This document shows, one piece after another, positions 11,593-59,136 of a stretch of DNA of 64,000 nucleotides (within the stretch, counting starts at the first letter, position 1; the number at the start of each line of letters is the position of its first letter). Origin of the DNA: Yuukianura sp. NJ FZ-2021 (taxonomy: Eukaryota). Both the position numbers and the translations under genes were made by a program. The DNA is taken from NCBI GenBank assembly GCA_046563655.1, contig CM102286.1, positions 14,136,001 through 14,200,000 of the forward strand, written 5' to 3'. The notes beneath the pieces are model-generated. The model made no database searches and was not told the origin of the DNA. It worked only from the letters and a program-made list of their open reading frames with translations.

Positions 11593-12720
11593 ATGTTCTT
11601 TGAAATTGTAACTTTATTGTTCGTATTGACACTTGCTTTGTGGTATTTGGTTGTACAATGGAACCATTTCCAACACGCTCCACCAGGTAAGCTCAAGGTT
11701 GCTATAGCACTCGTTTATACAAATGCACTTACAGGTTATGCCATAAGTCTATTTTTTTTAAATCACAAAAAAACAACTGTTGGATTATGATTTCACGATA
11801 ATATTTTGAATTTTTTTAACAGTCATAGTTTTGACTTCGAAGCTACAGAGCCGCGTCAACTATGCGATTCAAAAACTTTAAAAATGTGAAAAAATGAGCT
11901 ATGGTATAACCTGTTAAGAAAAAACAAACAAAATTTCCATTTAAACAACCTTGAAGTAGGCTGTTATTTTTAAATTTTTTTCCCAAATTTGATTAAAAAT
12001 TTCGAAAATAAAAAATTTACGCATACATTTTCAGGCCCAAGCCATCTATGGGTGCCATAAGTCTATTTTTTTTAAATCACAAAAAAACAACTGTTGGATT
12101 ATGATTTCACGATAATATTTTGAATTTTTTTAACAGTCATAGTTTTGACTTCGAAGTCAATACTAAAGCTAAAGCTACAGAGCCGCGTCAAATATGCGAT
12201 TCAAAAATTTTAAAAATGTGAAAAAAAGAGTTCTGGTAGAACCTGTTAAGAAAAAACAAACAAAGTTTTGATTTAAACAACCTTGAAGTGGGCTGTTATT
12301 TTTAATTTTTTTCCCCAAATTTGATTAAAAATGTCGAAAATAAAAAATTTACGCATAAATTTTTAGGCCCACAAAATCCACAAAAGTTTGATCCTGGACG
12401 ATTCCTGGACAGTCAAGGAAATGTCATCAATGCACACAAAATACTTCCATTTGGATGCGGTATGAACCAGTAACAATTTTCAAAAAAAAAAGTTCCAGAA
12501 AAATTTGAAATTTGAAAATTTTGTTGCAGGAAAACGTGGCTGCCCGGGCGAAGTCATAGCTCCTGCGAATGTTTTTACTTTCTTTACGTCGTTTCTGCAA
12601 AAGTATACTTTTAGTTAACCCCCAGCATCAGACTATTCGCCAGCAGAAATGAAATCAGAGTTTGGATTTACTTTATCACCTAAACCATTTCATGCTCTAG
12701 TCACTCCAAGGTTTGAGTAG
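11593..12720 (+). pseudogene. Internally deleted tandem duplicate of the P450
   Basis: Paralogous exon 1 (11593-11686) joins a segment starting near 12367 that jumps to PQKFDPGRF...FGCG/KRGCPG. CAA>TAA stop near 12616. The middle exons are absent. Confidence 0.85.
11694..11953. mobile_element. P-like MITE (CAAGG...CCTTG), partly re-duplicated at ~12053-12293
   Basis: Termini caaggttg / caaccttg with inner acaggtt / aacctgtt. Related to 39039-39258 in opposite orientation. A ~310-bp direct duplication follows. TSD unclear. Confidence 0.75.
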
Positions 12721-13089
12721 CTGCAACAAATTTCTTTTTCTGCACGAAACAGATCCATGCCCAAGGTCAAATGGATCAAATTTAGAAGATCAACTCACAT
12801 TTGACCTCTAATTTTGCCCTTAACAACAATTCTGAGAAAATTAAATTGCACAATCAAAACATAAAGTCTTGTTTTAAACAGATTAACATTCCGCTGCAGC
12901 TACAACCTCATTGACTTTGTATGCAATTTAGACACAATGAAACACTTGAAGTTAATAAATTTTAATTAATTAATATAAGAATTTTAACGTAAAACCACAC
13001 ATTAAAGCTCATTTATTGAATTGCACAAGTTCACGAAATCATATGGATTTTTTGTATTTAAAATAATTAAGGCTGCTGGGATAATTTTA

Positions 13090-13170
13090 TAGTTTGTCCT
13101 ATAATTTCTGGCATAAGTTTTATAATTTCTGGCATAATTCCTATAATTTCTATAATTTCTGGCGTAACTT
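13090..13170. repeat. Short minisatellite (tataatttctggcataa-like units)
   Basis: 3-4 imperfect tandem copies. Confidence 0.7.
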
Positions 13171-14226: not shown

Positions 14227-14266
14227 CTTCTGAAATTTCAAAAAAGTTTAAAAAATTTCTAGAAAT

Positions 14267-14509
14267 CAAGGTTTGTTGACTTTGACTTTCTTTAACAGAT
14301 TGGGTATTACCTCATGCTATTTCGATTTTGCAACTTTTCATTTCAGTGTATCGTAGTCATAACAATACAGCCAATTGTTTAAATTTTGCATATGAATTGG
14401 TACCAATTTTTGCGACTGGTAGACTTTTTTTTTCTCACTATCTTGTCAACAAGTGAGGTAGTACTCAACCTGTTAAGGAAAATTAACTTTGCTTTGGCAA
14501 GGGACCTTG
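14267..14509. mobile_element. P-like MITE
   Basis: caaggtttg...gaccttg with flanks ctagaaat / ctagcaat (7/8 TSD). Confidence 0.85.
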
Positions 14510-16195: not shown

Positions 16196-19100
16196 ATGGA
16201 CTTGTTAAAAACTGAAATGGATTCTGAAAATTTGGCACATTTGTTCAATTGGCCTGAATATTTGGTGTTTGGAGTAGTTCTGGCCTTGTCTATGGCTATT
16301 GGCGTCTTCTACGGTTTTTGTCATACACAAACCAATGAGGAGTTTTTGATGGCAGGACGCCAAATGTCTGTTTTCCCTGTAACACTTTCCATTATATGCA
16401 GGTAATTCAGGAAAAGTAATTACATGTAATTACAAGTAATTCGTAATTACATAAAATGTAATTCGGTTTGGTTTTAGTTTTATAAGTGCACTTACTTTCC
16501 TGGGAATTCCACTAGAAGTTTATTTGTACGGCGTTGTTACAAGCAGTATAATGTTGACTGGAATTCCGCTTTCACTTGCCATTGCCTATGTGTACCTTCC
16601 TGTATTTTATGAACTTCAACTTACATCGGCTTACCAAGTAAAATTTTCAAAAAATGAAATTTTTGAAAAAAATTAATATTTTATTATATATAAATATAAA
16701 TTATTAATACTTAGTACGTGGAGTATAGATTCAGTCGTCCAGCACGTTTGGTCATCTCTGTAACTGCCATTATTCATTTGGTATTCACTCTATAACTAAA
16801 TTTATACTAAATTTTTATCTCATAAATATTCATAAAAATAATAATCTACATGAATTTTTTTTTCATAAAGCTTTTGTACATGCCTTTAACAATATGGGGA
16901 CCGTCGTTGGCATTGGATCAAGGTTAGGTTCAAAGTTGCTATAACAACGAAATAGTTTTCCTTTAACAGGTTAGGCAAGAAGTCCTATTTTCGAAAAAGC
17001 TTGAGTCAAACCAAGGTAAATAGAATACTACTAGGTAGTGCGAATGGGAACTTTGTTTGGTTGCCATGTCAAAAAAAATGACGTCACTCGCTGAAAAATA
17101 CCGGAATTCTGCTCATTATTGATGGTGTCCTATAGAAACCCGTAAGACACATTTTGTTTACATAGATGCCAGCGGGTTCTATTTTCACGATTACGGTATT
17201 TTTTCAGCGGGTGACGTCACAAACAAAAATTGCGTTGGTTGCTATGGTCGCCATTTGCAGGGGGCTGGAGTCAAACAATTTTGTATACCTTTTTTGTTTT
17301 TTCCACTTTTTACTTTGAATTTGCCAATTCAAAAGCCATCTTTCTGAATTTTTTTAATTCCGTTCACCATACCAACCGCGATCGAAACTAGATGTATTCA
17401 ACTTTGAAAAGTTTTCGCAGAAAACTTAAAACTTGAGTTATTGCCTAACCTGTTAAAGAAAAAGTATTTCTTAGTTTATCCACGTTGACCACGTTGATTA
17501 TGTTAATCACAGCATTTTTCTGATTTAGTTGCTGGAATTGATAAATACTGGACATCGATCATTATATTTCTGGTGTGCATTGCTTACTCATCAATGGTAA
17601 TGCCAATCACAAACTCAAAACTGTCAAAAATGTTACTAGTTGTGAAAAATATTTAAATAGTTAAATATATTTTGAATGTTAGGGTGGATTAAAAGCCGTT
17701 GTTTGGTCGGATGTACTGCAAGGAGTCATAATGTTTGCAGCAATGTTTACAATTATAATTTTCGGAGTGAATGAAGTTGGAGGAATTGGCGTAGTTTGGG
17801 AAAAAGCTTCACTTGGAGGACGACTAAATTTTGACAAGTAAAAAGTATTTAGAAAAATACTTTCTCCAAAACAGAAATTTTGATTTTTTTTTTAATTTTT
17901 GATTAGTTTTGATCCGGATTATCGAACGAGATATAGCGGCTGGACAGGGCTGTTCGGTGGATTTTTTATTTGGCTTCAGCTTTACTGTGCAACGCAAGCG
18001 CAGATCCAGCGATATCTCTCTGTCCGCACGTTCTCGGATTCAAAAAAGTTTGAACAAAATTTTGGAAATTTTGAAAACTGTGTTGAACTTTTTTGATTTA
18101 CGGATTTTGTTTAGGTGTATGTTCTACAACATGGCTGGACTTTTTTTGATTAACATTTTATGCGGCTTCATTGGCCTAATTCTGTTTGCCAAGTATCATG
18201 ACTGTGATCCAATTTCTACAAAAGTGAGTTTACAGTAACCAAGGTTCTTTGGCAACGAAAAATGAATTTTCTTTGACAGGTTGGGTACTACCTCGCTTTT
18301 GACAAAAAAAAACTAAAGAAACATAAATTGTTACCCATCCAAAAAAAATGGGTACCAATTCATATCCAAAATTTAAAAACATACGTCTGTATTGTTATGA
18401 CTACGATGTTCTGAAATGAAAATACACTTTCTTTTTGCACTCTCAAAAAACCATGAGGTATTACCCAACCTGTTAAAGAAAATTAAAGTCAACAAACCTT
18501 GGCAGTAACAAACTTTTAGAAAACTTAAAATTTTTTGAAGAAATTAAAAAATTTGTATTAATAAAATGAATTTAATTACTTTCAGAAAGTGATGTCTGGC
18601 GACCAACTACTTCCGTTTTTTGTGATGGATGTTTTAGGAAAAATTCCAGGTCTTCCGGGACTCATGGTGGCTGGAATCACTTGTGGTAGTTTGAGGTATC
18701 TATTAAGTTTTAATCAACCAGTTAATTAGTTGTATTAATTAGTTAATTTATTAAATTTTAGTTCAGTTTCCAGTGCTCTCAATGCTCTTCCGGCAATAAT
18801 CGTGGAAGATTTTGTGAAACCTTGGCATCCAAATCTTTCTGACAAGCAGCTTAGTCTTGCTTCCAAAATAATTTCACTAGTCGGCGGCCTTATCAGCTTC
18901 GCTCTAATTTTCGTAATAGCTAACGTTGGCGGAATTTTTTCGGTATTCAAGAAAAAATTTCAAAAAAACTATTTTTTTTCGGAATTAAGAGAAATTTTAA
19001 CTTTTCAGTTTGCCTATCAAGTCCACGGAACTTTCCTGGGACCGATTGTTGGAATATTTACATTAGGAATGTTTTTTCCATGGGCAAATGCTTGGGTAAT

Positions 19101-26429: not shown

Positions 26430-29400
26430 ATGGTGAAAGATTTTGAAGACATTTTAGAAAAAACTGGTATGTCAAATTTTAAAAATTTTGCAACAAGAGG
26501 AAGACGTCGAAGAAACTATTCTTTTTTTATATAAATTGTTTTTTTTTTTTCAAAATTTTTAGGCGGATTTGGGAAATTTCAGTTTTTGGTGTTAGTCATT
26601 GTTCTTGGTTTCGAAATTCCGGTAGCTTTTATTGGATTTATTCCAGTTTTTACTGGAATACTTCCAGAATACTGGATTTGCGATGGCATCGAAATTTCAA
26701 AAACGGAAGCATGCAGTTGCAACGGAACTCTCACCGCACCTACTCCATATACATCAGTAGTCGCAGAGGTAAATTTTTCAAAAAGACGTATACAAAAGAA
26801 ATTTTTTGAAAAATTTCAAAAAATTTTGAGAAATTTTTTACAGTGGAACCTCGTCTGTGAGTATTCTTGGGTCTCTGATGCCTTCAACAGTGCTCAAATG
26901 TTGGGAACTTTAATCGGTGTTTTGTCGACGTCTCAAGTTTCTGATTGGTTAGAAAGCTTTTATCAAAATTTTATTTTTCTCATTTTGAACCAAACAAATT
27001 TGGCTGAATTTTTTTTTTTTTTCAGGTATGGCAGAAAGTACACGACGTTTGGTTCCGGAGTGGCTATTGGACTTGGTTCGATTCTTTCCGTCATTGCACC
27101 GAATCCGTATATTTACGCTGTCGGACGCATAATTTGCGGCGCAGCAGTCTCCGCTCTATTGAATATTACCGGTATCTACTCTATGGAGTTTCTGACAGCG
27201 AAAAAGAGATTGTTGTGCGCATGTGCAGGACCGTTCGGTTGGGGTACAATGGTCCTTGCGTTCATTGCTTACTTTATCAGACCGTGGCGTACTTTGGTCT
27301 GGATCACAACATCACCTGTACTCATCTTTTGCCCACTTCTACTAATGTAACACAAGCAAAAATTTTGAAAATTTCCAAAAATTTTACTCTTTTTTTTTTT
27401 TGAATTTTTGTTTCATTTTAGGTTCATTCCAGAAAGTCCGAGATTTTTGATGCGGAAAGGCAGGCTGGAAGAGGCAACCGAAGCGATAAATTACATCGCA
27501 AGGTTCAACGGCTGTGAAGAAATTGACGCAGAAGTGATACGTCAAATAGTCGAAAAAGAGCAAGGACAATCCGGCGACAGTCGAAAAAGCTACCTGGACT
27601 TGTTTCGACGAAGTGACTTGCGCAGGAAAGCATTTTGTTTTGGTACACTTTGGTTTTCATGGTCACTTGTGTATTTTGGCCTTTACTTTAATGTCAAAAA
27701 CCTTCCTGGAGATATTTACGTCAGTGCGATATATTTGAGCGTGTCGGATGTTATTGGCTTTCCTGCGGCGTCACTCATCCTGGACAGGTTAGAATATTAT
27801 TTCAACACAGTTATGCAAACAATTCATTCGTATACAAAGCTTTCAAATACAGTCAAAACTCTCATTATGAAACACGCTCTGATTGGTTGGTTTGAAAAAA
27901 GTCACGGATACAGCGGGGACTCAAGTTTTAACACATATGAGCAGTGTTGCTGGATGGATAAAATATTTCTTCCACTCTCCTCGAAAGTGGTGGATATATC
28001 TGAATTTTATTGGTTTCTTCCGGACGAAATTCAATTTCGTCCATCGCAAACTGGATTTTATCCGGATTTATCCATTATCCAGTGGATATAATCCTAGACG
28101 AAATGCTAAAGAAGTGGAAATCCGGCAACACTGCATATGAGACAAGACAAAAAAAGTGACACCGGATAAGTTGGTATTTCAGTCAAAGTAACTTTTACTT
28201 GTACTTTGACTTTGGAAAATGAGGATATCCTCATTTTTGTCAAATCAAAGTGGTAAGTCAAAGTATAAGTTCGAGTGGAAGTTTGACTGAGAATTGAGTT
28301 TTTCACTCAAACTTGAGAACTTGCACTTTGTGTGTGGTTTCTTATGGTTGAAGTAAACTTTGACTCCACTGATGTGTTACCCACAAAATACATTGTACTA
28401 TTACATAATATTACATAATTAAAGTTAACTAATCATAAATTAGTTAAAGTTAATTAACTAATTGCAATTAATAATTAACTTTAATTAGTACGATTAACCT
28501 ATCAGATACCTACATTTACGGTGATTTCGGTTCGCTGACCACGAAAATCACTTCAAAAACGTTAAAAACCTAAACCTAATTAACTAATTACAATTAATAG
28601 TTAACTTTAATTAGTACAATTAGCACATGAGAAAAATGCATTTGGGGTAATTTTGGGTCGCCTACCACGAATATGACTTCAAAAATGCAGAGAAACGTAA
28701 ACATAATTAACTATTGCGATTAATAATTAACTTTAATTGATTAATTAAACTCAACTTCAACGTGAGTTTTGAACGAGGAGTCAGCTTACTTCAACCATTT
28801 TTTCGTTGAAGTCAAAGTAAAAGTAATGGGAAGTAACAACAGAACTTGTACTTGTACTTTGACTTTTGTCCGTCACAAAGTCAAAGTACAAGTAAAAGTT
28901 ACTTTGACTGAAATACCAACTTATCCAATGTATTAGAAATAATGTTATCAAGCAATTTCTAGAAAAGTTGGTAATTCCAAAAATCATAAACTGCGCAGTT
29001 TATGCGCAGTGCGCAGTTTGTACGCAGTGCGCAGTTTGTGCGCAGTGCGCAGGTTGTGCGCAGTTTGCGCGCAGTGCGCAGTTTGTGCGCAGTGCGCAGT
29101 TTGTGCGCAGTGCGCAGTTTGTGCGCAGTGCGCAGTTTGTGCGCAGTGCGCAGTTTGTGCGCAGTGCGCAGTTTGTGCGCAGTGCGCAGTTTGTGCGCAG
29201 TGCGCAGTTTGTGCGCAGTGCGCAGTTTGTGCGCAGTGCGCAGTTGGTGCGCAGTTTGTGCGCAGTGCGCAGTTTGTGCGCAGTGCGCAGTTTGTGCGCA
29301 GTTTGTGCGCAGTTTGTGCGCAGTTTGTGCGCAGTGCGCAGTGCGCAAAGTAAAAGTAATGGGAAGTAACAACAGAACTTGTACTTGTACTTTGACTTTT

Positions 29401-31298: not shown

Positions 31299-33554
31299 AT
31301 GACTAAATTTATAAAAGATTTTGAGGACATTTTAGAACATACTGGTAAGGAAATAATTTACAATTATTCCAGGATGAGGAATTCGTAACTTTAAGTTGTT
31401 TTACTATTGTTTTGATTTTGTTTTTTCATAATTTTCAGGTGGATTTGGAAAATTTCAGTTTCTTGTGTTGGTAATTGTGCTTGGCTTCGAAATTCCAGTG
31501 GCGTTTATTGGCTTCATTCCAGTTTTTACTGGAACACTTCCAGAATACTGGATTTGTGATGGAGAAGAAATAGGAAAAACGGAAGCTGCTAGTTGCAACG
31601 GAACACTGGCTGCACCTACTCCATTTACTTCAGTTGTAGCAGAGGTAAAATTTTTCGAAAAACTGAAATTCAAATTCCAAAAATATAATTTCTCAAAAAT
31701 TTTTAGTGGAACTTGGTTGGCGAATATGCTTGGGTCTCTGATTCCATCAACAGTGCTCAAATGATTGGCATGAACGTGGGAGTTCTACTTTGTTCCTGGC
31801 TTTCTGATTGGTTAGATTTTTTTAGAAGAAAAAAGTTCACAAAAGTTCGAATTTTTTGAAATTTAGTTTTACCGCGTTTTTTCATTAGGTATGGCAGAAA
31901 GTACTCGTGTTTTGGTTCCGGAGTGTTTCTGGCACTCGGTTCGATAATTTCTGCCACTGCGCCTAATCCATACGTTTATGGCATTGGACGCGTCATTTGT
32001 GGAGCAGCGTTTTCAGCTCTTTTGAATCTTACCGGCATTTATGCCTTGGAATTTCTGCCGGTAACGAAGAGATCGTTCAGCGCATGTGCAGGACCGTACG
32101 GTTGGGGCACTGTGATACTCGTACTGGTTGCATACTTTGTCAGACCATGGAGAACTTTAGCTTGGATCACAACAACACCTTTACTCATCTTCTGCCCACT
32201 TCTGCTAATGTAATTTCAAATAAAATTTTGAAATTTCTTTGAAATTTTGAAGAAAAAAAAACATTTTTCTTCTCTAGATTCGTTCCAGAGAGTCCGAGAT
32301 TTTTGATGCGGAAAGGACGAGTGGAAGAAGCAGCAGAAGCGATAAATTGCATCGCAAGGTTCAACGGACAGCAAGAAATCGATGTGGAAGTGATACGCAA
32401 AATAGCCGAAAGTGAACAAGGGAATACCAGCGAAAGTCGAGCTTCTTACTTGGACTTGTTTCGACGAAGTGACCTTCGCGGAAAAACACTTTGTTTGTGT
32501 TCAATTTGGTTTGCATGGGCGATGTTGTACTTTGGACTTTTCTTTAACGTCAAAAACCTCCCAGGAGATATTTACCTTGGTGCGTTGTGCTTGGGAGGGT
32601 CGGACGTTGTTGGTTTTCCTGCGGCTTTACTCATCATGGACAGGTTAGTTAATATTATGCAAGGTCCGTAAACAAGAAAATAGTTTTTTTTTCTTCAACA
32701 GGTTAAGCAATAACTCGAACTTTTTAATTTTTGTTGAAAAATTAGCAAAGCTTGGTTCACCATGCTTTTCTATTGCAATGATTTTTATGTAACTCCAATG
32801 GAATTGGAGGAAAACTGGGGAAAAAGGGGTTAGCAGCGAGATTTTTAAAAAACATACTTATTGCCCAACCTGTTAAAAACTATTACGTTGCTTTAGGAAC
32901 CTTGATATTATGTAATGATGTGTAATGTCATCTAATGTTGTGTTATGGTGTGTAATAGGTATGGTCGGAGAAGATCAGTGGTGATGACGATGTCACTTGG
33001 AGCTGTCGTCATGGCGACTCTGGCTGGGCTCCAGCTAGCTCTGGACCTCCGGACATTTCCAATCGTCATCCTGTTGTTATGTACTTTGGCCAAATTTTTC
33101 TTGGGTATGGCAAGGAGTGCTACCAAATGTTTCACAGCCGAGTCATTCCCAACTGATATTCGGACCATAGGTATACATAAGTATAAGCTGAGCGGGAATT
33201 TTCAAATTCTGACCATTTGGCCCTCTTTGTTCAACAGGAGCTGGATGTTGCAGTGTTCCAATCGGAATTGGAGCCGCAATTTCTTCACAAGTCGTTTTCC
33301 TAGGAAGCAGTAAGCTCATATTACAAAAAAAAGTTTTAGTATTTCAATAATTTTTAAATTTCTTGAATACAGTTGAACCTTCATCACCGTTTTTTGTTTT
33401 TGCCGCCGTTGGGATCACTGGCTCCATCTTTTCTCTGTTCATGACGGAAACTTCAGGAAAGCCATTACAGGAGTCAGTTGCCCGGAAACTGAGTCGGCGT
33501 ATCAGCATCATCAGCTCAATGTTTTTACCGTCAGTCAAGGAGATGCATACGTAG
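31299..33554 (+). CDS. SLC22-like transporter copy 4
   Basis: Intact exon set with the same motifs as copies 1-3. Confidence 0.92.
32660..32904. mobile_element. P-like MITE in an SLC22 copy 4 intron
   Basis: caagg...ccttg with perfect TSD atattatg. Confidence 0.92.
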
Positions 33555-38054: not shown

Positions 38055-38700
38055 AATCATACGTAACTGAGTATAAGGGTACAAGCTGGAGCCTGAGCGT
38101 CAGCCTTCAATTGAAAAATTAATAATCGTTTTGAAATTAAGAATATGTTCAATTGTTTATTAATTAACCCCTTCTCGACAATCTCCAAGTCCTTGAATTT
38201 ATCTTTGTTCAATTCCGCTTCCAAGGTTGGTAAAACAAGCAAACTATTGATTCCTTACGTCAGGTTATTCAATGACTTGACGTTTTTTAATTTTGTTAAA
38301 TAATTTGCAAAATTTGCTTCGCCATGCCTTTCTATCGTAATGACTTGTATGTAATGTAACGGAATTGGCTCAGAATTAGCGCAAAAATTCGTTTCACTCA
38401 AAATTTCGAAAACCACGAGTTATTGAACAACCTCTTGTAGGAAATGCAATTTGGTTTACTACAGCAACCTTGGATTTGTTGTTCAAAAATCATAGGTACG
38501 TTCTGATTATACGGGTACCAGCTGGAGCCTGAGCGTCAGCCTTCAATTGAAAAATTAGAACTTTCGCTGTCAAAAAACCACCAATCGTTATGAAATTAAG
38601 AATATTTTCAATTATTGTTTATTAATTAACGCCTTCCCAACAATCTCCAAGTCCTGGAATTATCCTTGTTCAATTCCGGTTCTATTGTTCAATTGTTTAA
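38055..38700. repeat. Two copies of a dispersed repeat (gggtaca.gctggagcctgagcgtcagc...) separated by a P-like MITE at 38222-38472; third copy at ~45050-45550
   Basis: Direct sequence similarity among the three loci. Confidence 0.8.
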
Positions 38701-38800: not shown

Positions 38801-40130
38801 TTAAAGTCTTGAGGCAGCCCCTCCACCGACGACATGATTTTCTCCAGTGATGTACGATGCGTCATCAGAACACAGAAACGACACTATCCCTGCAACGTCG
38901 TCCGGAATTCCGAATCTACCAAGCGGAATTTGATCCATCAACTCTTTTGCCGTTTTCTCACATGTAGTTAGCTACCAAGGGACCACGAATTAGTCAAAGA
39001 CAAATCACTGCGTAATCTAAACATTTGTTAGGCTAGACCAAGGTTGTTTAAAACGGAATTTTGTCTTTTCTTCATAGGTTATGCCATAACTCTTGTTTTA
39101 AAAAAAAATGTTCGATTTTTTTCTCAAAACATTGACCCCGTCCCATGCTAAGGAGACCGTTGGTGAAAAACTTGTTTTTTTTCGTAATTTTTTGGAAAAA
39201 GGGAGTTATGATATAACCTGTTAGAGCATTCGTATGAATGGGCGCTATAGCAACCTTGGGCTACACAGTTATCTTACCACATCACTGAACCTTGTCTCGA
39301 TGACACCAGGGCAAACAGAATTGACGCGAATGTTATCAGCACCAAGTCCTTGAGCAAGTGCCTTCGTCAGTCCTAGAAGGGCTGTCTTACTCACACCATA
39401 GGCTCCTAGACCCTTAAACAAGAGAATACACGATTACTTTGCTTCTTGATTTATTGTGGACAGTGTTTTAACTGACCTGGAGAAATTTTATGCCAACAAT
39501 GGATGAAATGAATGTAATGCTACCACCCTTCCGATTGAGTAAAAGTGGATACACTTCTTGGGAGAGGAGAAAGGCAGCTTTGACGTTCGTCTCAAATATT
39601 TTGTCCCAAGCGGCTTCAGGGCACTACACAAACAAGAATTTGGTACAAAGATGGTCAGTTTGTTCTGATCCACATGAGTTACCTCTATTGCAGGTCCTAC
39701 GTGTGGATTGACAGCAGCATTGGAAACTAGGATGTCAATCCCTCCAAAAGTCTCAACAGTTTTTTGGATCATTTTGGTTCTTTCTTCCTTATTTGCCACA
39801 TGACACTGCATACCTCGAAACTGATCCTTCGGAATTCCAGCCTTAAACAGTGTTTCAAGGGCTTTTTCGACGTTTGCCGGTTTCCGACTGCTGATCATAA
39901 CTTTAGCACCATCTCGAAGCAGTCTCCGTGCTATTGCAAATCCGATTCTGCAAATTTAAAACGTAGAACCGCTAGAAGAGAAAGATTGATTAAATAATGA
40001 ATTTAGTATGAATCTGTACTTACCCATCAGTGGAACCTGTGACAATTGCAACTTTTCCATTTAACTTGGAAGCAGCAGTTGATCCCAGTCTTCTTGCGAG
40101 GAGCAGTAAAGGGCTCTTTCCGGTTAACAT
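38801..40130 (-). CDS. DHRS4: Dehydrogenase/reductase SDR family member 4
   Basis: VAIVTGSTDGIGFAIA, ISSRKPANV, DILVSNAAVNP, YGVSK (YxxxK), YITGE, C-terminal PTS1 SRL. Confidence 0.93.
39039..39258. mobile_element. P-like MITE in a DHRS4 intron
   Basis: caaggttg...caaccttg, flanks ggctagac / ggctacac. Confidence 0.9.
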
Positions 40131-40408
40131 GGTGCACTGAATTGTTCAATAGAAACTGAACTTACGAATCGTAAGTTCACTTTCTCGTAATCGTAAGTTA
40201 CAATGCTCAAGGACGCATGATCAATCATCACCAATTTCAAACTTTTATTACCTTATTGTCACAAAATTATCTCCAATTCTCCACTTAACTAGCCGACAGC
40301 CGACAAATAAAGTTTCACCTTCAAATACCGAAATTCCTGAACATTCATCATTGTTTTAAAGTTTAAAACAATGATAACAATGATGAACAATGGTAACAAT
40401 GATGGTGC

Positions 40409-40580
40409 GTCATCGCGTTTTCCGTCATGGCATAGGGAACTCAATTGGTCATCGCGTTTTCCGTCATGTCCAGAATAAAGGCCGGTCCGTCATCACGTTT
40501 TCCGTCATGTCCATAAGAAAGGCCGGTCCGTCATCGCGTTTTCCGTCATGGCATAGGGAACACCATTGAAAAATGGTGCT
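40409..40580. repeat. ~40-bp tandem repeat with core gtcatc(g/a)cgttttccgtcatg, 4 copies; related copies at ~44870-44960
   Basis: Direct inspection. Confidence 0.85.
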
Positions 40581-41619
40581 TCGTCATTCTTGGTATGATG
40601 CAAACGAACACCCTGAAATACTTCCATTTCAACACTCTACGACCAAATTCATTTGCAAATGGAATGGTCGCATACAACGAAAAAGTTTTAGCCAATGTAA
40701 ATCTTTTTCAGTGGCAAAATGAAACCTACAACTACCACTAAATTTATTTGAAATTAAGATCTTTTAATAAAAGCTTTCTCAATCAAAATTTCTCGACAAC
40801 AGGAACGTATGTTGACAAGGCTAAAAGTAGTACTCACTTTTTGGAATTTTATTTCTCGAATGTTCTAGAAGGGAGTCTGTAAAAAATAGAGTTTTTGAAT
40901 TTTGAATCAAATGTTATGTGGTAAACTTTAACAATGTTGTCGTCTCAATATGTTCAATTTTTAAAAATGGCTCATTATCTACTCCAAGCTCTCAAATCTC
41001 CATTCTACTAAGGCCTGACATGTTTTCATTTACCTCAAAACATATCCTTTTCGGTTGAAAACATTGATTTTTAAATTGTCAGTCTGGCCACTTAAATGGT
41101 CAATTTTAGCGGGTTAGATAAGCTACGCTCTGCACAATCGTCGTTTCACTTACTTATTTCAATTTAAACTGTTTACAATTTATAATGTTTCAATTTATAC
41201 TGTTAGTACTGTATAAACACTGTTAATGCGCTGTTAACTTTCTAATTGGCCTGCCATAAAAAGCTGAACACGCTATTACATTGTTTTAAACGGATACACA
41301 CTCACTACTCAAACACGCTTTTCCCCAATTATTGTTTCCTCGGTTTGCTAATTAGCAAATAAAAATATCAAATTTTGTTTGATAACAAAACATGAGAGTG
41401 GCATTACCGAAAGAAAAATATAGAATCACCGAAGTATTATTAATTTTTTATTAAAAGTAGAGAGCACGCCCTGAAAAAAAAAAACTAAAATCTAACCTTG
41501 AAACTGTGGTTGCTTCACTAATTGGTAAATATGTCGCTTTCGCTACGTTGAAATAGCCAATTATGTTCTAATGGCCTTCTAATTTGCCTACGATTTATTA
41601 AGTAGCGAAAGTATGAGCT

Positions 41620-42430
41620 ACTTTATGTTTTCCCTTGAGTCTGTCTGTCCGTCTGTCCGTCCGTTGCTGGTCAAGCTAGCTCTGGAGCCGCTGGACCGAT
41701 TTTCAATCTGTCTTTACAGATGAACATGCCATGGTTTGGGGGTGAACAATCAGTGTCCTGTTTGACAGGAAGTAGACCCCTTAAGGGTCAAAGGTCAAGT
41801 ACATTTTTGACAGAAATCGGAAAAATGACCTCAACAAAAGTTTATCTCATTGGACTGAACAACTTTTGTACAGGTGACCTTGACCTTTGACCTTGGGTTC
41901 TGGAGATATAGACCTTAGAAGTTGCATAATGGCGTCGCTCATGCTATTCGCATCTATAACTCCAGAACCACTGGACCGATTTTCAATCTGTCTTCACATT
42001 TGCGTTTCACATGTTCCAGGGGTGTTTAATCAGTGTCCAGCTTGACTGGAAGTTGTCCAGGTCCGGGTCAATGGTCAATGTCAAGTACTTGAATGCCGGA
42101 AAACGAAAAAGTGACCTCTACAAAAGTTGTTTATCTCATTGGACTGAACAACATTTGTGAAGGTGACCTTGACCTTTGATCTACGGTTCCAGAGATACAG
42201 ACGACAGAAGTTGCAAAATGGCGTCCCTCGTCCTACTCGGGGAAGCATGACCTATTTTATGTTTTCCCCCGAGTCTGTCTGTCTGTCCGTCTGCCTGTCT
42301 GCGCTATAACTATGTACCTCCGAAACCCCTGGACCGATTTGCAATCTGTCTTCGTAAATCAGTTTATCATAGCCTGGGGGTGATTAATACGGCTCCGGCT
42401 TGACTGGAAGTGCGCAATTTCCGGGTTGTG
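41620..42430. mobile_element. Helentron/DINE-1-like non-autonomous element with internal tandem duplication
   Basis: ctgtc(c/t)gt microsatellites at ~41640 and ~42275, three ctggaccgatt..caatctgtc blocks, gaccttgacctttga motifs. Family assignment is inference. Confidence 0.6.
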
Positions 42431-42866
42431 TGTACTCTAGCTTCCTCTCGATACTTACATACGGCGTTTACAACGGTTTATTTTCAAAGCATCTTTGCTT
42501 CGGTTGAAAATATTATTAATGTTTGAATTTGGCACATTTGCTACTTCAATTGTCAATTAGAGAGATAGATAACCTCCGCTCTGCAAAATATTTCTTGTTT
42601 CAATGTTTTTAGGTAAACATTGAATAGGTTTGTTGTCTGAATCTAACCAATTTTCAGACATCACGTATTCCTTATTGTCGATAATAAAGGCTCCGTATAT
42701 GCTTTAGTTCACGTTCAAAACATATCCGTTTCGGGTCAAATTTGGCGCATTTGTAACTTAAATTGCCAATTGGAGAGCTAGAAAAGCTCCGTTCTACACA
42801 ATCGTTGTTTCAATTTCAACCAAAACTCACAAGTGAATGTGCCTTTAAAAAATTAAAATTTTTACA

Positions 42867-44480
42867 ATGAATATTTGGTTTCTAATATCCTGGGTCAACT
42901 TGCATACAAAACTTTGGCTTTCTCCTTTTGTCTTCAAGTCAAAATTTCCTCCAGTCTTAACGACAGTATGTTATACTGGAAAATTGGGTACTGCAAGGTA
43001 TTACGTGGAGATTTTTTTGAAGATATTTGCATGGCCCTGGTTGGTATTTCTGGGAATTCGTTACATGCAATATATCGGAGGGTCATTGACTTTGGGAACG
43101 ACGGACATCGCGGCAATCACTGCCAGCATCATGAACATGCTGATTTACTTCTTGATAAAACTTGCGTTTTTCAAGAAGGAGGAAGATTGGACCTACTTTG
43201 TAAACTTGTTCCTGCGATTCCAATACCAAAATGAAAGTACGTGTATTTTAATCTCTTATTCAATTATTAAATAACATTTTTTTTTCATTTGTCTATCGTA
43301 CATGCCTGTTTATCAAGGTAGCTGTAGCAACGGAATAGTTTTCCCTTAACAGGTTCGGCAATAAGTCCTGTTTTCGAAAAATCTTTTCGAAAACAGGAGT
43401 CAAACAATTTTTTCTCCATTTCCTGTTTTTTTCTACATTTTACTCCTTTTCTATTTTGAATTTGCCAATTCAAAAGCCAACTCCCGAATTTTTTAATTCC
43501 GTTTGCCATAACAACCGCGATTGAAACTAGGTAAATTCAGTATTGAAAATTTTTCGCAAAAAAAAGAACAAAAACTTGAGTTATTGCCTAACATGTTAAG
43601 AAAAAGTATTTCTTTGTTTATCCACCTTCCTTGCCCGTTGATGTTTATTTGCTATAAGGTTCACAACAGCACAATTTTCGACGAATGTGGAACTTCTGTA
43701 ACAATCTTTTCTGCTGCGTATACTGGCTGGACTACGCAACTGGAGTTTATTCACTCTTGGCTGCATTCGAAAATCCAATTCAGTTGAGCATTCTCGTATT
43801 TGGACAACATTTTCGGGGAATTGGAATCGCTGAACAACTGATCAATTTTGGTGTCAAATCGCTGAACCAGTGCCTTCTCGCACAAATAAAATTTATTTCA
43901 GGAACTTATCATCTTGCCACTGCAAAGGCATTCAGACTGAAGTTGCAAAAGTACCACAAAATACCTTAAAATGGAAATATTTTATGGTACGGTAGTGCGT
44001 AAATTTTAATTTTTGAATTGCAGTAACCAATCATATGCGGAATTTGAGCGGGAATACCAACAGAGGGCCATTCTGAACAGAATTTACAACAACTTTTACC
44101 AAACAGTGGTGATCCCGGCATGTATTGGATTCCACCTTGTTGTCTTGATCAGAAGCATCTACGTTGCAGTTAGATTTCTCAACAAAGCTACAACTACTGT
44201 TACGATTGTACGATGTATTGACGTAATCTTGCAGGCTATAATTGGTGTAGCACTTTGTGCAATTCCTGCTCAAGTGTACCGTGACAGCTCCAATTTACTG
44301 GAATTTTGGAAAAGAAAAACGGATGGCATAGGAAACGTGATGCAGCGCCGCAGGATGTTGCGTAGTTTGGCGCCATTTGGAGCACAGTGTGCTAACTTCT
44401 TTGTAATTCGACCAGAAACGACAGTGGCATATGTTAGCCTGGCATTTGAAAACGCTATTAACGTTCTTGTTTGTGTGTAA
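42867..44480 (+). CDS. Divergent chemoreceptor (gustatory-receptor-like) multi-pass membrane protein, ~372 aa
   Basis: Exons 42867-43236, 43659-43950, 44024-44480 join in frame. Multiple TM segments and a GR-like C-terminus RRMLRSLAPF...FFVIRPET. Confidence 0.7.
43314..43640. mobile_element. P-like MITE in an intron of the GR-like gene
   Basis: Flanks ctgtttat / atgtttat. Homologous to the 16931 element. Confidence 0.85.
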
Positions 44481-44543
44481 TAGAACACTTTTGCACTTTT
44501 AGTTTATGTTTTGCAAAGTGGTACGAATTTACAGCATCATGTC

Positions 44544-44809
44544 CAAGGTTTATTGACTTTGACTTTCTTTAAGAGGTTGGGTAATACCTCATGTTTTTTT
44601 TTGATTTTGCAAAAAAAAAGTGTCTTTTGCTTTCAGGGAGTCGTAGTCATAACAATACAGCCGAATTTTTTAAATTTTGCATACAATTGGTTTCATTTTC
44701 TGGATTGGTAGTAATATTGGTACCATTTGTTTTTTCGTTTTTGTGTCAACAAGCGAGGTAGTACCCAACCTGTTAAAGAGAATTAACTTTTCGTTGTCAA
44801 GGAACCTTG
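44544..44809. mobile_element. P-like MITE
   Basis: caaggttt...gaaccttg, flanks atcatgtc / atcctgtt. Same subfamily as 14267 and 18240. Confidence 0.88.
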
Positions 44810-45079
44810 ATCCTGTTATTCCACGTTTATTAAGAAACTTTTGCTACTTTATAATTTTGATTTATAAAAGTCATCACGTTTTCCGTCATATCCCCATAAG
44901 AAACGCCGGTCCGTCATCGTGTTTTCCGTCATAACATAGGGAATACCATTGAAAAATGGTGAAAAACATCCGCACAATTATCCCGGAAACTACTGAACCG
45001 ATTTCGCCCCGGTTTTTACCAATCAACAGCTCATGAGCGTGACAGCTTGGTTCTGAGTGTAAGGGTACATGCTGGAGCC

Positions 45080-45377
45080 CAAGGTCCGTAAACATGAAAA
45101 TAGTTTTTTCTTTAACAGGTTAGGCAATAAGTCAGGTTTTTATTGTTTTCCTTCCAAAATTGAAAACATGAAACGGCATCACGGCAGCTCTCGTTTCCTT
45201 GGCGACTTTAGCTCGGATTTATTTTTATTTGTGCAGTTGGATGCAAATTTTTAACTCAAATAAAGTGATCTACAAGGTCAGAGTAAAATCAGAGTAAAAA
45301 AAATGTTTGCAGTGACATTTTTGAAACTTATTGGCTAACCTCTTAAAGATAACTATTTCTTTGCTATTGAAACCTTG
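45080..45377. mobile_element. P-like MITE nested in a dispersed repeat
   Basis: Flanks ctggagcc / ttggagcc. Empty sites near 38086 and 38522. Confidence 0.9.
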
Positions 45378-45651
45378 TTGGAGCCTGAGCGTCAGCTTCA
45401 GCCTTGAATTAAAAAATCAAAATTTTCGCTGTAAAAAAAACCGCCAATCGTTTTGAAATTAACAACACGTTCAATTGTTTATTAACTAGCCTTCCCGACA
45501 TTCTCCAAGTCCTTGAATTTATGTTTGTGCAATTCCACTTCTATTGTTCAACGGAGGTTACTTAACGCACTTGAATTTGTAATTCAGCGTCAGACTAACT
45601 CATTTCTTCGAAAGCAAAAAGACCTGCAGCCAGAATCGAACCGATTGAGCC

Positions 45652-46790
45652 ATGCAGTTTGCAGTTACGCTTGGCCTGTTGGTCGTCGTATTGCCATGGA
45701 GTGACGCAATGAAGGATTGCAAAAAACCCAACCCGGTTCCTTTCGTAGACGATTATGTAAGAAATTTAAATGTTGTCTTCTTTTCCACATCATTTCATTA
45801 TCAGTACTCTTAAACGCTTAAATTCGTTTTAAGTTCTAAATTCCCATTCACACTAAACCTAAACAAAAGTGTAACTTGATATGGCAATTGTCAATGTCAT
45901 ATAAACTAACTGATTGATTGGTTAAAAGCGTAAAAAGAAAATTAACAAAAATTCAGATTTCTAATATTTCTAATGTTTTTGTAGTTTTGTGGTGGGCAAA
46001 AGACATTGACCTTTGCGTTACACTCTGACTGCACCAACTGTGAAGAAGGTGATGTAAAATGGAGACCATTTCAAGGTCGATCAGTTCCAACGACGGTGTG
46101 CTACAAGATGCATGGTGAAATGTACGGGAAGCCATTTTCTGCTAACTTCGAATGTAATTACTCCGTGTCCGGACGAGGAGGCTGTGTACTCCTTCCAGGA
46201 AACTCAGCCCAGACACCATGTAAGAGATCAGTATTTCCAAGGTTCCTTGACAACAAGTTGCATTTCCTACAACAGGTTGTCCATTACCTCGTGGGTTTCA
46301 AAAATCTTGCTTCAACCAATTTTCTTTCAATTCCAATTGCTTTTACCTGCAAATAATTATCGCAGAAAAAAAAAGTTGCTCAAATTTTTTAACAAAATGA
46401 AAAATATAAAGGTATTGGACAACCTGGTGTAGAATAGACAACTTTTGTTTACGAACCTTGAGTATTTCTGTGATTATTATTATATGGTAAGTGGTTTTAG
46501 GTAAACGTCACGAAAATCTTAAAACAAACATTTTGTGCATATTTGCAGTTGCTGGTGACCATGTTGTGACGAAGACGGATAATAAGACGTACCTGGCTGG
46601 AGTCACTTGCGTTTTTGGGTATGACGAATTTTTCTGGGTTGTAACGAACGAGGACAGGTCAGCTGACGAGAAGTTCAAGAAGAAAATGTTGAAACACTTC
46701 AAAAGCATTGGATTCGAAACTACGAAATTGGTCGACAAAGATGGACCACTCGTTTTTAAAACCATGGACTACCAGAAAGACAAGTGCTAA
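45652..46790 (+). CDS. Secreted lipocalin-like protein (3 exons)
   Basis: Signal peptide MQFAVTLGLLVVVLPWSDA. Exons 45652-45756, 45985-46219, 46549-46790 join in frame. TDNKTY...TC (SCR2-like), FWVV and a terminal Cys. Confidence 0.7.
46238..46460. mobile_element. P-like MITE in the lipocalin intron; partial related end at ~47020-47075
   Basis: caaggttc...gaaccttg with perfect TSD agtatttc. Confidence 0.92.
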
Positions 46791-47440
46791 ATTCAACAGG
46801 CTCATCCGGATCATTCGATCTCCAACGGAAACAACTTAAACCTTCAAGTAGACTGTAGTTTCAAAAAAATTAAAATAAAAAAAAAATGCAATTCCATTAA
46901 GCAGTGCTCAAGGGTGAAGCACATGTCTACTAGTTTAACCGCAAGTTTTGTCCAACCACCGAACATTTTTTTATACCCGCCTGACCAGTTCAATTGTTTG
47001 AAGCAAAATTTTTGGAAACTCCGAGGTAGTGGACAACCTTTTGTAGGAAATACAATTTTTTGTCAAGGAACCTTGGATTATGCCGTCATTTAAAATAATT
47101 TTACTTCAGTAGATACTCGAGTCCATGATCACTCACTGGCTGATTTTCAATTCAGCACACCTACTGCAGATTGCACTAATTGCTGAAACTATAATGATTT
47201 TTCAAGTTTCGTTAAAAAATGCACTTCACTAACATCACCTCTTTCAAAAAATAGTATTTAGCCGGAAAATGTTAGTTTTCAAACTTACTATTCATCGTAC
47301 GTCAGCAGCAGCTTTTGAACTGAACGTTGTTCTTCAAATAGGGCTCTTTGAGAAATCCAAAGTTAATTTATTAATTTTTAGTAAAGGCGAATTAGTAGGA
47401 TGACTTGAAAAGATGGATAAATTTTGAAAAAAAAAAGTTT

Positions 47441-53179: not shown

Positions 53180-53291
53180 ATTCGTTGTTATGACTATGAT
53201 GTACCGAGATGAAAAGATACTTTTCGCTCAAAATAAAAAAAACATGAGGTATTGCTCAACCTGTTAAAGAAAATCACGTCTACAAACCTTG
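53180..53291 (-). mobile_element. Truncated P-like MITE (one end only)
   Basis: catgaggtattgctcaacctgttaaagaaaa...aaaccttg matches the family end. Confidence 0.75.
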
Positions 53292-55709: not shown

Positions 55710-56666
55710 CTAAACTTCGTCTTCGTTTACTAGCATATTGGGAATACCGTTCTGGATTTGAAACTTCCTTCCAGTTTCAGGACATTCCAATTCACCCGTT
55801 ATTACGTCAATCTGTGAAGTTTCAACAGAAATACACCAGTTTTAGTAAGAAGTGATTCCACAAATAATATATTACGTTACAGAAGAACCTCTCATTTAGC
55901 AACTTTTTTCTTGAAAAGCAATATCGTAAAACCTAAGCTATTGGATGCAGTTCTGGGCAGTCCGATACTGTTGGCTGTGGTCTGGTAGTTCCGATACTTC
56001 TGCGGTGATGTAATGCTAATGGTAAAGGTATCGGACTGCGATTAGTAATCAGAGGTTTCACGGTATCGGAACGAGTTGCTATAAGAGAGGTTTTTCTGTA
56101 GTGTCAATTACTTCGAGGAGTGCATGGTGTGCTTTTCTAAGAAATTCATCGTTTCTTTCGTAGTCCTCTGGAACTTCAGCGGGTAAATTAGTACTCTCTG
56201 CCTGCCCAATCTAAGTATGTAAAAACAAATGAAAACTTCATATTCAATGTTCTTTAAAGCATATGATTTGCAATTTTTAAATTCGGAATTAGCACTACTT
56301 GAGTTTTCCTTACGTTTTTAACAGTATCACAAAGTACGTCCCAGCACACCTTTGGTAAGAGTTTGGCAACAAACATCGGTGAGAATTCGGATTCCAGTAC
56401 ATTAATTTCCGTTGTCTACAAAATTAAATAAAAAGTAAAATTAAAAAAATTGGAAGTTCCTTCGAATGTCACCATTGTTTCCATGGAATCAAAAAATCCA
56501 AAAATTCAAAATTGAAACAAACACAAATTCACCATAAAAAAAATTACTGGAAGGAAGAGTATCGATTGAGGATTGATTTGAAACTTACCGTGAGTTTCAG
56601 AGGATATCCATTTTGAACTTTACAAATCATCCTTGACGTCATCAGGTTGTGAGTAAGTAACTTCAT
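55710..56666 (-). CDS. TRMT112: Multifunctional methyltransferase subunit TRM112 (4 exons)
   Basis: MKLLTHNL...[51 protein letters not shown]. Confidence 0.96.
55880..56098. mobile_element. Tc1/mariner-type MITE, TA TSD, in a TRMT112 intron
   Basis: ta|cagaagaacctctc...gagaggtttttctg|ta, with internal tccgatac / gtatcgga inverted repeats. Confidence 0.85.
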
Positions 56667-56923
56667 TCTCACGATTAATCGATTAATTAATGCCAAAATT
56701 AACAAAACTAATTGAAAACACGTGTTTATGCTATTGCTGTTTACAACAACAAAAAAAGACAATTTGAAATTTACGACTTTGATTTTCGCGGTTTTATTCT
56801 TGAGACAATAACATAAGCTCGGACTTTTAAATTGTTTAAACAATAATAATTGTCGAAAAATCTTAAACTTTAAATTAACTTACATTGAAGTAATTAAAGT
56901 AATTAAAATTTCAGAAGTTAATC

Positions 56924-59136
56924 ATGACACTGCACTGGACTGTCTTGTTCTTACCGTTCCTCGTTCAGTCAATATCCGCCCAATTACGACAAGAACAATT
57001 GGACGATCTTCCTCGGGCAATCAGTAAGTTTTTTAAATAAAAATAGTTCTAAACAAAAAATATAATAATAATAAAATAGAATAATACAATAGTATATAAT
57101 ATTTAGTAGTAATATATAATAATTTAATGTATAATATAATACATATAATACTAATAAAAAAATAACTTTTAATGAATTAACTTACAGGTCTTCTGAGCGA
57201 CTACCAACTGACGTTTGTTCAGCAAGAAAAAGCTACACAACTTCGACTCAACAAAGAAAGGATCAACGGGCCTTCTGGAAATTTCACACCGATAAAGTCT
57301 CCCGTCCAAGTTTTACAGGGCTTGCAAACTGAGCATCTCCATAACCACAGTGTTTCGGCCATCGAATGGGCCATGACCTACTCCGGTCAAGATGTAATCG
57401 GCGCACTACTCATCTTCTTTACACTTTGTCCCATCTTTTTCGGCCACTTTGTACGGAGATATGTGTACCGATTACTCAAACCCACCATCTCCGTCAAGCA
57501 CAAAAGCAACTTTCCAGTCATTCCGCTCAAGTATCTCCAGGAAACGAAAGATGAGCAACGTGTTTTCCTTCCTTCCAGAAACACTTTGCGTTGGGCCGCC
57601 ATGCGGTACATCATCATGGCGTCCGATAACGTCGTGAACCTCAAGATGCTGCATTACGGTAAAGGTAGTGAGGAAATGGATCAAGTCAAGTACAGAAAAC
57701 ACCGTGCATGGTTCATCCTTAGAATTATGGCCAAGGTTTGTTGACTTTGGTTTTCTTTAACAGGTTGAGTAATACCTCATGTTTTATTTTTATTTTTGCA
57801 GTTCAATGCTATTTACACCCGAAAGCAAATGGAAAAAGAAGGTGAAGAAGCTGGACTGGACAAGCTGAAGCAATTGGCCAAAATCAGACGATTGCAGGCG
57901 CGCCAAGAAGAAATTCAAAAAATTGCTGAACAGGAAGCTGAGCGAATTCGACGAGCGGAACTTGGCGAAAGTGATGAAGATGATAACAAGAAACGACCAT
58001 TGTACAAACTCGGAATTGACAAAACTGGACTGCGCAAGTATGCTTACGACCTTCGTCACCCTGACGACCGGGCGTCAATTGTCGTTGACGGGGAGAGAGT
58101 TATGAAGCCCGAAGCGGTCAAAAGACGAACTTCATTGGAGATTGTGTACGAAGGGCTGCGGAGAGGCATGGCCAACCCCAGTTCTAGATTGAGTTTGGAG
58201 CGTCTGCGCCAATTTTCGGACGAAAGTATTATCCACGGACCGGCAGAACCCGAACCGGAACAGAAACCGGAAGTGGAAGAACCTCCGCAACTTTCGGAAA
58301 AAGCTGCCATGAAAGCAGCAGCGATGCAACAAAAACATATTTTGAGACATGTAGAGCAGGCAAATCGGTCGAGGCTGTTTAGCCAGGCGCCCGCTCCTGC
58401 CCGCCGGCCATCTCTCCGTACGATGTCACTAATTGAACTTGAAAAGCCCAAGACCAGTGTCCAGGAAACATCAAAAGAAGCGGCGCCAGAACCCGGAAAA
58501 GACGCTGGACAAAGAGATCATGTGACGAGAAAACATGGCCACCATCATCGTCATTCGCATGGTCATCATCACACTGAGCATGCCCAAGGTCCGAAACATG
58601 CAGCAGCACCCATAAACCCGCCCCATCAGAAAAATCGTCGTGATACGGAAGAGTCACGGCCTCCGAGAAAATCTGGTGCCGGGGGAGCTACGCATGCTCG
58701 TCATCATCATCGTCACCATGCTGCCCATCACGGTCGTCACGAACGCCGTGCAACTCTTGATCCAGCGACAGAACAAGCTAAACCTCGTGCTGCTACTGGC
58801 AAACACAATCTACATCACGATCCACAAGAACATCACACTGATGCTCCTCCTCCAGCACATCACACTGATGCTCCTCCTCCAGCACATCACACGGATGCTA
58901 CTCCTCGACCAGCACATCACACTCATGCTCCTCGAAAGGAACATCACACTGATACTTCTCCTCGACCAGCACATCACACTGATGCTCCTCCTCCAGCACA
59001 TCAGACTAATGCTCCTCCTCCAGCACATCACACCGATGCTCCTCCAGCACATCACGACCAGCAGCAACATTTGGAAGTACCAGCACGACACGGTCACCAC
59101 AAAGCAAGGTCACCCCAAGGATCGCCAAAAAAATGA
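56924..59136 (+). CDS. Orphan signal-peptide plus single-TM protein with His/Pro-rich repeat tail (3 exons)
   Basis: Exons 56924-57023, 57188-57735, 57802-59136 join in frame. TM VIGALLIFFTLCPIFFG and HHTDAPPPA repeats. Confidence 0.8.
57732..57801 (+). mobile_element. Left-end fragment of the P-like MITE family spanning the predicted intron 57736-57801
   Basis: caaggtttgttgactttggttttctttaacaggttgagtaatacctcatg...ttttgca aligns with the first ~70 nt of the 14267 and 44544 copies. Confidence 0.85.
58830..59056 (+). repeat. Coding minisatellite, 27-30 bp units (cacactgatgctcctcctccagcacat)
   Basis: About 8 tandem units encoding HHTDAPPPA variants. Confidence 0.93.

What the first reader, a model, noticed from the sequence alone, without database searches (positions are those of the whole stretch)
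11694..57801. Abundant P-like MITE system with shared bipartite ends and unrelated interiors
Seen: at least 12 elements of ~220-330 bp excluding nested inserts (11694, 14267, 16931, 17012, 18240, 32660, 38222, 39039, 43314, 44544, 45080, 46238) plus fragments (47075, 53291, 57732). Most have short CAAGG/CCTTG termini and an inner AACAGGTT...AACCTGTT inverted pair about 30-40 nt in. 8-bp TSDs are perfect at 17012, 32660 and 46238 and near-perfect at most others. Interiors fall into several subfamilies and most copies lie in introns. Known: CANRG termini, 7-8 bp TSDs and subterminal transposase sites characterise the P/THAP superfamily. Inference: one transposase cross-mobilises many subfamilies through the inner motif.
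Basis: partly seen in the sequence, partly recalled or inferred. Interest (0 to 1): 0.7.

Follow-up and report, generated by a model that had tools for sequence, protein, structure and literature searches.

The report
P-element MITEs that can create introns
These are small non-coding copies of P-type jumping genes in an animal genome, a known kind of element, and at least one copy seems to have turned into a new intron inside a protein-coding gene.

Summary
Real, and P-type. Eleven of the 12 listed elements share a CAAGGTT terminus plus an inner AGGTT motif; 1,302 such ends occur genome-wide against 59 in the control. The genome holds full-length THAP-P elements with these ends: P-A (two copies 99.4% identical, one with an intact 781-aa DDE frame) and P-A2. 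None of 9 hAT loci has them. Target duplications are 8 bp (66 of 116 copies) or 9 bp (15), never 7, as in Drosophila BuT5. 'One transposase' is not supported: subfamilies of different ages track different P families, two have no detected parent, and 17012 is a separate family. Added result: the terminus reads CAAG|GT, a splice donor. The fragment at 57732 is a whole 66-nt intron. A syntenic relative has an unbroken exon there, and splicing restores the protein without a gap (Gln to Lys). Two to four more exon insertions in my sample have in-frame splice geometry. No RNA evidence. Earlier notes of this scan flagged this fragment and single intron-forming copies elsewhere in this genome. P-MITEs and introners are each known; a P-derived introner in an animal did not appear in my searches.

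The parts
11694..11953 (.). P-MITE, subfamily F3 (no parent detected), 9-bp TSD with 2 mismatches, in the first intron of a P450 paralogue that looks internally deleted
12053..12285 (.).
14267..14509 (.). P-MITE, subfamily F0 (largest, no parent detected), 8-bp TSD; probably intronic in a minus-strand gene
16931..17496 (.). P-MITE related to 43314 (80% over 236 bp), in an intron of a sodium:solute symporter gene; hosts the nested 17012 element
17012..17267 (+). Separate, younger MITE family (copies 89-98% identical, 106 candidates); left 26 bp match the TIR of a third P element (P-B, L046); right end GGCTG; 9-bp TSD; no inner AGGTT motif
18240..18501 (.). P-MITE F0, 8-bp TSD, intron of the symporter gene; 540 candidates in the genome, best other copies 79-84% identical
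32660..32904 (.). P-MITE F1, perfect 8-bp TSD, intron of an MFS/sugar-transporter-family gene
38222..38472 (.). P-MITE F1, TSD not found, between two copies of a local duplication downstream of an SDR gene
39039..39258 (.). P-MITE (ends like F3), 8-bp TSD, inside an ordinary SDR intron that has its own donor
43314..43633 (.). P-MITE related to 16931, 9-bp TSD with 2 mismatches, between exons of a receptor-like gene (no Pfam support)
44544..44809 (.). P-MITE F0, 8-bp TSD with 2 mismatches, downstream of a stop codon
45080..45377 (.). P-MITE F4; 79% identical over 131 bp to the 3' end of full-length P-A; 8-bp TSD
46238..46460 (.). P-MITE F1 (ends like P-A2), perfect 8-bp TSD, in an intron with its own donor
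46992..47075 (.). One-ended F1 fragment (87% identical to the left end of 46238, inverted)
53185..53291 (.). One-ended F0 fragment
57732..57801 (+). F0 left-end remnant: 57732-57735 (CAAG) is exonic, 57736-57801 is a predicted 66-nt GT-AG intron of a host gene; absent from the syntenic relative L185
57190..59136 (+). Host gene (no Pfam family) whose coding sequence is interrupted by the MITE-derived intron; open for 626 codons when spliced

Best explanation
The elements are non-autonomous MITEs of a clade of THAP-domain P transposons. They arose repeatedly as internal-deletion derivatives of several related P families: P-A, P-A2, and probably parents now lost. Each keeps a 7-bp terminus and a roughly 20-bp inner motif at a family-specific, often unequal distance from the end (30/38, 36/37, 39/41 nt). 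They were copied by cut-and-paste in successive waves, leaving 8-bp and less often 9-bp duplications. Shown: shared ends, TSDs, transposase domains and catalytic residues, deletion series. Inferred: the inner motif is the transposase (THAP) site, and each wave used the transposase of its time. Side effect: the terminus CAAG|GT is a splice donor, so a copy that lands in an exon next to a suitably placed AG can be spliced out in frame and survive as a new intron. For 57732 the DNA-level gain is shown and splicing is inferred.
For: Full-length P-A at L049:3635-7030 and L047:2693-6301, 99.4% identical, with 8-bp and 9-bp TSDs. THAP, HTH, RNaseH_N, GBD and P C-terminal Pfam hits in order. E=7e-26 to the Drosophila P transposase structure 6P5A, with the first two catalytic Asp and the DxxH motif aligned. 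The L047 model is 781 aa, GT-AG throughout, with D260/D333/E556. P-A2 (L048:3691-7287, perfect 8-bp TSD) carries the exact inner octamer. Deletion series: 827, 738 and 917 bp with perfect TSDs, and a 228-bp MITE 96-97% identical to both P-A ends. F1 consensus is 83% identical over 117 bp to P-A2; F4 is 81% over 132 bp to P-A. TSDs in 116 copies: 66 of 8 bp, 15 of 9 bp, 35 none, under 1 expected per class. Intron: gapless match of the spliced protein to P0002 and an unbroken exon in syntenic genomic contig L185.
Against: F0 and F3, which include 4 of the 12 window elements (39039 has F3-like ends), show no match to P-A or P-A2 at E<1e-4, so their link to P rests on the end motif and TSDs. P-A has a variant inner octamer. 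No binding or transposition assay was run. The genome searches score only the best candidates, so parents or other superfamilies could be missed. The intron rests on one outgroup and no RNA. Most copies are not introns of their own: 20 of 162 strand tests had in-frame geometry, and long open frames across the site were rarer at elements (5 of 232) than at random positions (6.9%).
Confidence: 0.85

Rival explanations
1. One transposase mobilised all subfamilies through the shared inner motif.
For: The terminus and the AGGTT core are 97-100% conserved over 232 ends (partly by construction, since the detector required them). All larger subfamilies show the same 8/9-bp TSD mix. Some copies (32660, 46238) match P-A and P-A2 ends about equally. 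Hybrid P-MITEs are described in Anopheles (PMC1562414).
Against: At least two transposase families carry these ends, and each has its own derivatives. Mean pairwise identity ranges from 96% (F2) to 73% (F1). No near-identical F0 copy was found among the 40 scored, although P-A is recent, so P-A does not appear to be moving F0 now.
Confidence: 0.12
3. For the intron claim only: exonic copies are not spliced and mark dead alleles, or the MITE landed at an existing intron boundary.
For: Some donors are weak (no G at +5 in L062 and L129). The L129 copy could lie in a native intron, since about 15-20 flanking residues do not match the Pfam profile. There is one outgroup only. The GC-donor route was added to my test after I saw L078.
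Against: The relative has no intron at the 57732 site while keeping the upstream intron. The intron is MITE sequence over 63 of 69 aligned columns. The Gln-to-Lys change with no indel is what swapping four exon bases for CAAG predicts. Flanking frames stay open: simulated neutral survival at 6% divergence is 0.014 (57732), 0.08 (L062) and 0.22 (L078).
Confidence: 0.15

Closest known systems
BuT5 MITE and the repleta-group P element of Drosophila (PMC3698922; passages and section 21 read)
   Same: P-superfamily MITE sharing only its ends with the autonomous element; very short TIR plus a 16-17 bp sub-TIR about 30 bp in; TSDs of both 8 and 9 bp, attributed to flexibility of one transposase.
   Different: BuT5 is one family of about 1 kb with tens of copies. 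Here there are many subfamilies of 180-330 bp, over a thousand ends, a 7-bp terminus, variable spacing, and exon insertions with splice geometry.
Anopheles gambiae P-MITEs (PMC1562414; parts 1-2 of 7 read)
   Same: Ten MITE families tied to six P subfamilies in one genome, 205 bp and up, P-like ends with unrelated centres, several waves of amplification.
   Different: Anopheles has 27-31 bp TIRs and perfect 8-bp TSDs; no intron creation is mentioned in the parts read.
Drosophila melanogaster P element (review PMC7776569, passages; structure 6P5A)
   Same: Same domain order and catalytic residues; internal sites spaced unequally from the two ends (9 and 21 bp there).
   Different: 31-bp perfect TIR and strict 8-bp TSD there; here the TIR is interrupted and the TSD is 8 or 9 bp.
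Introners (PMC9860276, passages; PMC12130899, passages, section 6 and supplements)
   Same: Non-autonomous TIR elements that carry one splice site and co-opt the other from the TSD or neighbouring exon, with zero or whole-codon change to the mRNA.
   Different: Introners were found in only two animal groups in the 2022 survey, and the 2025 family table had no THAP/P terms. Here only a few percent of copies are intron-like and splicing is not shown.

Membership tests
P superfamily | Transposase with THAP, HTH, RNase H split by a GTP-binding insertion, and C-terminal domain, bounded by the same ends as the MITEs | tested here: met
P superfamily | DDE triad and DxxH motif | tested here: met
   D260, D333, D368-H371 and E556 in the L047 model; the first two Asp and DxxH align to 6P5A
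P superfamily | TSD of 8 bp (7 bp in Galileo and 1360; 8 or 9 bp in BuT5) | tested here: met
   66 of 8 bp, 15 of 9 bp, 0 of 7 bp among 116 copies; literature
P superfamily | Internal transposase-binding sites at unequal distance from the two ends | tested here: inconclusive
   Conserved motif with 30/38, 36/37 and 39/41 nt spacing; binding not tested
P superfamily | GTP-dependent transposition with 17-nt staggered cleavage | not testable with these tools
   biochemical; described in PMC7776569
MITE | Short, non-coding, uniform size, high copy number, inverted ends and TSD | tested here: met
   89 copies of 180-339 bp; 1,302 exact ends
hAT superfamily | hAT transposase bounded by these ends | tested here: not met
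   0 of 9 loci
Introner | Element carries or co-opts both splice sites so that the frame is kept | tested here: met
   DNA level: 57732, L062:1300 and L078:1501; weaker: L141:1469, L129:5453
Introner | Orthologous gene lacks the intron | tested here: met
   1 of 1 site tested against an orthologue (L185); a paralogue aligns without a gap across the L078 site
Introner | At least four sequence-similar introns in unrelated genes | tested here: inconclusive
   3 good and 2 weaker candidates from three subfamilies; threshold from PMC9860276
Introner | Splicing seen in RNA | not testable with these tools
Catalogued Dfam/Repbase family | Match to an existing library entry | not testable with these tools
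   no such library is offered

The most novel reading that the evidence does not exclude
A clade of P-element MITEs has acted as an introner in this animal. Because every end reads CAAG|GT (or forms AG|GCAAG when the target ends in AGG), copies landing in exons were kept as new introns, some later shrinking to ordinary intron size (66 nt at 57736-57801). At 2-4 of 81 sampled copies and roughly 1,300 copies (my extrapolation), that would be some tens of P-derived introns, from a superfamily and host group not found in the introner papers I searched.
Probability: 0.6. Interest if true: 0.7.

Novelty: new variant of a known kind. Interest (0 to 1): 0.5.

Why it matters
As a MITE system this is a further case of what is described in Anopheles and the Drosophila repleta group. 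It adds an apparently intact, recent P transposase that leaves both 8- and 9-bp duplications, which makes TSD flexibility and end recognition testable. The larger point is intron origin. Introners are reported to be rare in animals; here the generating superfamily, the base-level mechanism, the empty ancestral exon and a later shrinkage step can all be read at one site, and RNA data would test it directly.

Tried and rejected
No RNA holder listed. Contigs of four DNA runs laid at 80% likeness were dominated by paralogous copies; only 15 of 505 joints were shown and none was a clean empty site, so presence/absence was not resolved. hAT partner rejected. 39039 as a self-made intron rejected: the geometry fits (+6) but the SDR intron has its own donor 17 nt upstream; 46238, 32660, 18240 and 16931 likewise lie in introns with native donors. 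A search for further P transposase remnants that could parent F0/F3 returned only the same loci (best candidates only). The automatic exon-chain model chose wrong splice paths and was replaced by a coordinate model (one search had a one-base slip). A homologue search with one P-A exon gave a single relative, P0001, at 49%, too little for a phylogeny or a horizontal-transfer claim. Open-frame candidates L006, L146, L153 and L028 had no Pfam support or no long frame and were dropped. Paper searches listed no report of P-derived introners or of this family, judged from titles and abstract openings. Supplement files 13-14 of PMC12130899 were not searched, and a bare 'P' label in its table could not be queried. 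I did not determine the host taxon; 'springtail-like' comes from earlier notes.
Full report
Setting. The window is G000:C4:14136001-14200000 of a 98.7-Mb eukaryotic assembly in 22 contigs, 36% GC, with short introns and animal-type genes. Earlier notes call the host springtail-like; I did not test that.

Observation. All listed elements are present (boundaries are in the observation check). The pattern CAAGGT-N20-34-AACAGGTT occurs 13 times in the window against 0.015 in shuffles, and 1,302 times in the genome against 59 for the reversed control. It catches 13 of about 26 ends in the window, so roughly 1,300 copies is a rough estimate. In 116 two-ended copies from the window and fetched loci, TSDs with at most one mismatch were 8 bp in 66, 9 bp in 15 and absent in 35, with under one expected per class from shuffled flanks. 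This sample is enriched for F0 and for P-A/P-A2 relatives by the way loci were fetched. The ends consist of a 7-bp terminus, a variable spacer and a motif of about 20 bp with an AGGTT core, at 30/38 nt (F0, F2), 36/37 (F1, F4, F5) or 39/41 (F3) from the two ends.

Autonomous partners. Five loci carry the P RNase-H domain. L049 and L047 are two copies of one element (P-A), 99.4% identical, bounded by the MITE-type ends, with an 8-bp TSD at one and a 9-bp TSD at the other. The exons give THAP, HTH, RNaseH_N, GTP-binding insertion and P C-terminal hits, and one exon matches the Drosophila P transposase structure at E=7e-26. The L047 copy models as eight exons and 781 aa with D260, D333, DxxH and E556; the L049 copy has lost one acceptor. 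L048 holds P-A2 (3,597 bp, perfect 8-bp TSD, exact inner octamer, frameshift near residue 681). P-B (L046) and P-C (L045) have other ends. None of 9 hAT loci is bounded by the MITE ends.

Origin of the subfamilies. P-A has derivatives of 827 and 738 bp and P-A2 one of 917 bp, all with perfect TSDs. A 228-bp family (F2, 10 copies, 96% mean identity) is made of 99 and 106 bp of the two P-A ends plus a short filler. In the window, 45080 matches the P-A 3' end (79% over 131 bp), the F1 consensus (32660, 38222, 46238) matches P-A2 (83% over 117 bp), and 7 of 12 elements match a P end beyond the motif at z>=5. F0 (54 sampled copies, 83% mean identity) and F3 match neither, and no further P remnants were found. 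Element 17012 is a younger family (89-98% identity) that shares only its left 26 bp with P-B and has 9-bp TSDs in 5 of 6 copies. The simplest reading (inference) is successive waves from a diversifying P clade, as described for Anopheles (PMC1562414). The end structure and 8/9-bp TSDs parallel BuT5 (PMC3698922). That the inner motif is the THAP site is inferred from its conservation and variable spacing, by analogy with the unequal spacing in D. melanogaster (PMC7776569).

Intron creation. Earlier notes suggested that copies of this family form introns, so I checked the window. Full-length copies in introns sit inside introns with native donors. The fragment at 57732 is different. Removing 57736-57801 (GT-AG, 66 nt) joins two frames into 626 open codons that align without a gap at the junction to P0002 (64% identity over the upstream exon), with Lys for Gln. 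The genomic contig encoding P0002 (L185) is syntenic with window 52-63.7 kb, keeps the upstream intron and is unbroken at this site. The intron matches the F0 consensus at 63 of 69 columns. Inferred history: insertion into the exon; donor from the terminus; acceptor from the exon's own CAG four bases past the duplicated target, so that CAAG replaces four exon bases; later deletion of most of the element. The downstream TSD copy is gone, so this history cannot be checked directly.

How common. Of 81 copies with a TSD, 18 (20 of 162 strand tests) have an in-frame acceptor. I examined nine candidates. Three have Pfam support for a host domain on both sides: L062 (FolB, net 0), L078 (transporter, GC-AG, net 0; upstream hit weak, but a paralogue aligns without a gap) and L129 (CAMSAP CH, +6, possibly a native intron). 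All three have the geometry (about 0.002 at the background rate, post hoc). L141 has it without convincing Pfam support. A copy in a reverse-transcriptase frame lacks it. Four candidates were dropped. By gene and length, L062, L129 and perhaps L141 are the loci of earlier notes, so they are checks and not new finds. Against over-reading: elements are depleted, not enriched, in long open frames (5 of 232 against 6.9%); neutral survival of the flanking frames is low but not negligible for L078; and no RNA was available.

Comparison and verdict. P-MITEs with shared ends and different centres, and mixed 8/9-bp TSDs, are published. TIR-type introners that carry one splice site and co-opt the other are published (PMC9860276; PMC12130899). 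The 2022 survey found introners in only two animal groups. In the 2025 supplements, terms for P, THAP, Galileo and arthropod groups had no relevant hits (12 of 14 files searched, a bare 'P' label not searchable). Six paper searches listed nothing on P-derived introners. The MITE system alone is a new member of a known kind (about 0.35). The intron-forming behaviour, shown at DNA level for one site and likely for a few more, makes it a new variant; overall interest 0.5.

Noticed in passing
No TSD found.
   Followed up: partly
window 35023-35466 and 38057-46721: One contig of run X5 aligns on both sides but skips these two stretches, suggesting a structural haplotype or a paralogous region lacking six of the MITEs.
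   Followed up: no
window 11595-12720: A second P450 copy joins an N-terminal exon to C-terminal exons across the 11694 MITE and its tandem duplicate; it looks internally deleted.
   Followed up: partly
window 1-1867: 131-bp tandem array, 14 copies, 95% matches.
   Followed up: no
window 28159-29440: Long inverted arms (56 nt, 96%) around 126-bp and 18-bp tandem arrays; possibly a foldback-type element.
   Followed up: no
window 41646-42713: Very high-copy repeat (highest contig depth) with TGACCTT-type motifs; similar units form tandem repeats inside an intron of P-A2 (L048, about 5300-5650).
   Followed up: no
L049:5278-5408 and L047: Intron 4 of P-A holds a 54-bp tandem repeat whose copy number differs between the two otherwise 99.4% identical copies.
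   Followed up: no
window 55711-56672, 59570-59674, 60231-60255, 63545-63756: Short blocks conserved (69-100%) with the relative L185, several more strongly than the known exons; small exons or conserved non-coding elements.
   Followed up: no
L176-L183 (G000:C4, about 5.17-5.19 Mb): A P-A-related MITE is carried in a roughly 950-bp tandemly repeated unit.
   Followed up: no
L062: A bifunctional dihydroneopterin aldolase/HPPK folate-synthesis gene in an animal genome.
   Followed up: no
L051:3401-7053: A hAT locus with 38-bp inverted ends and repeated subterminal GAGGA motifs, a candidate full-length hAT.
   Followed up: no
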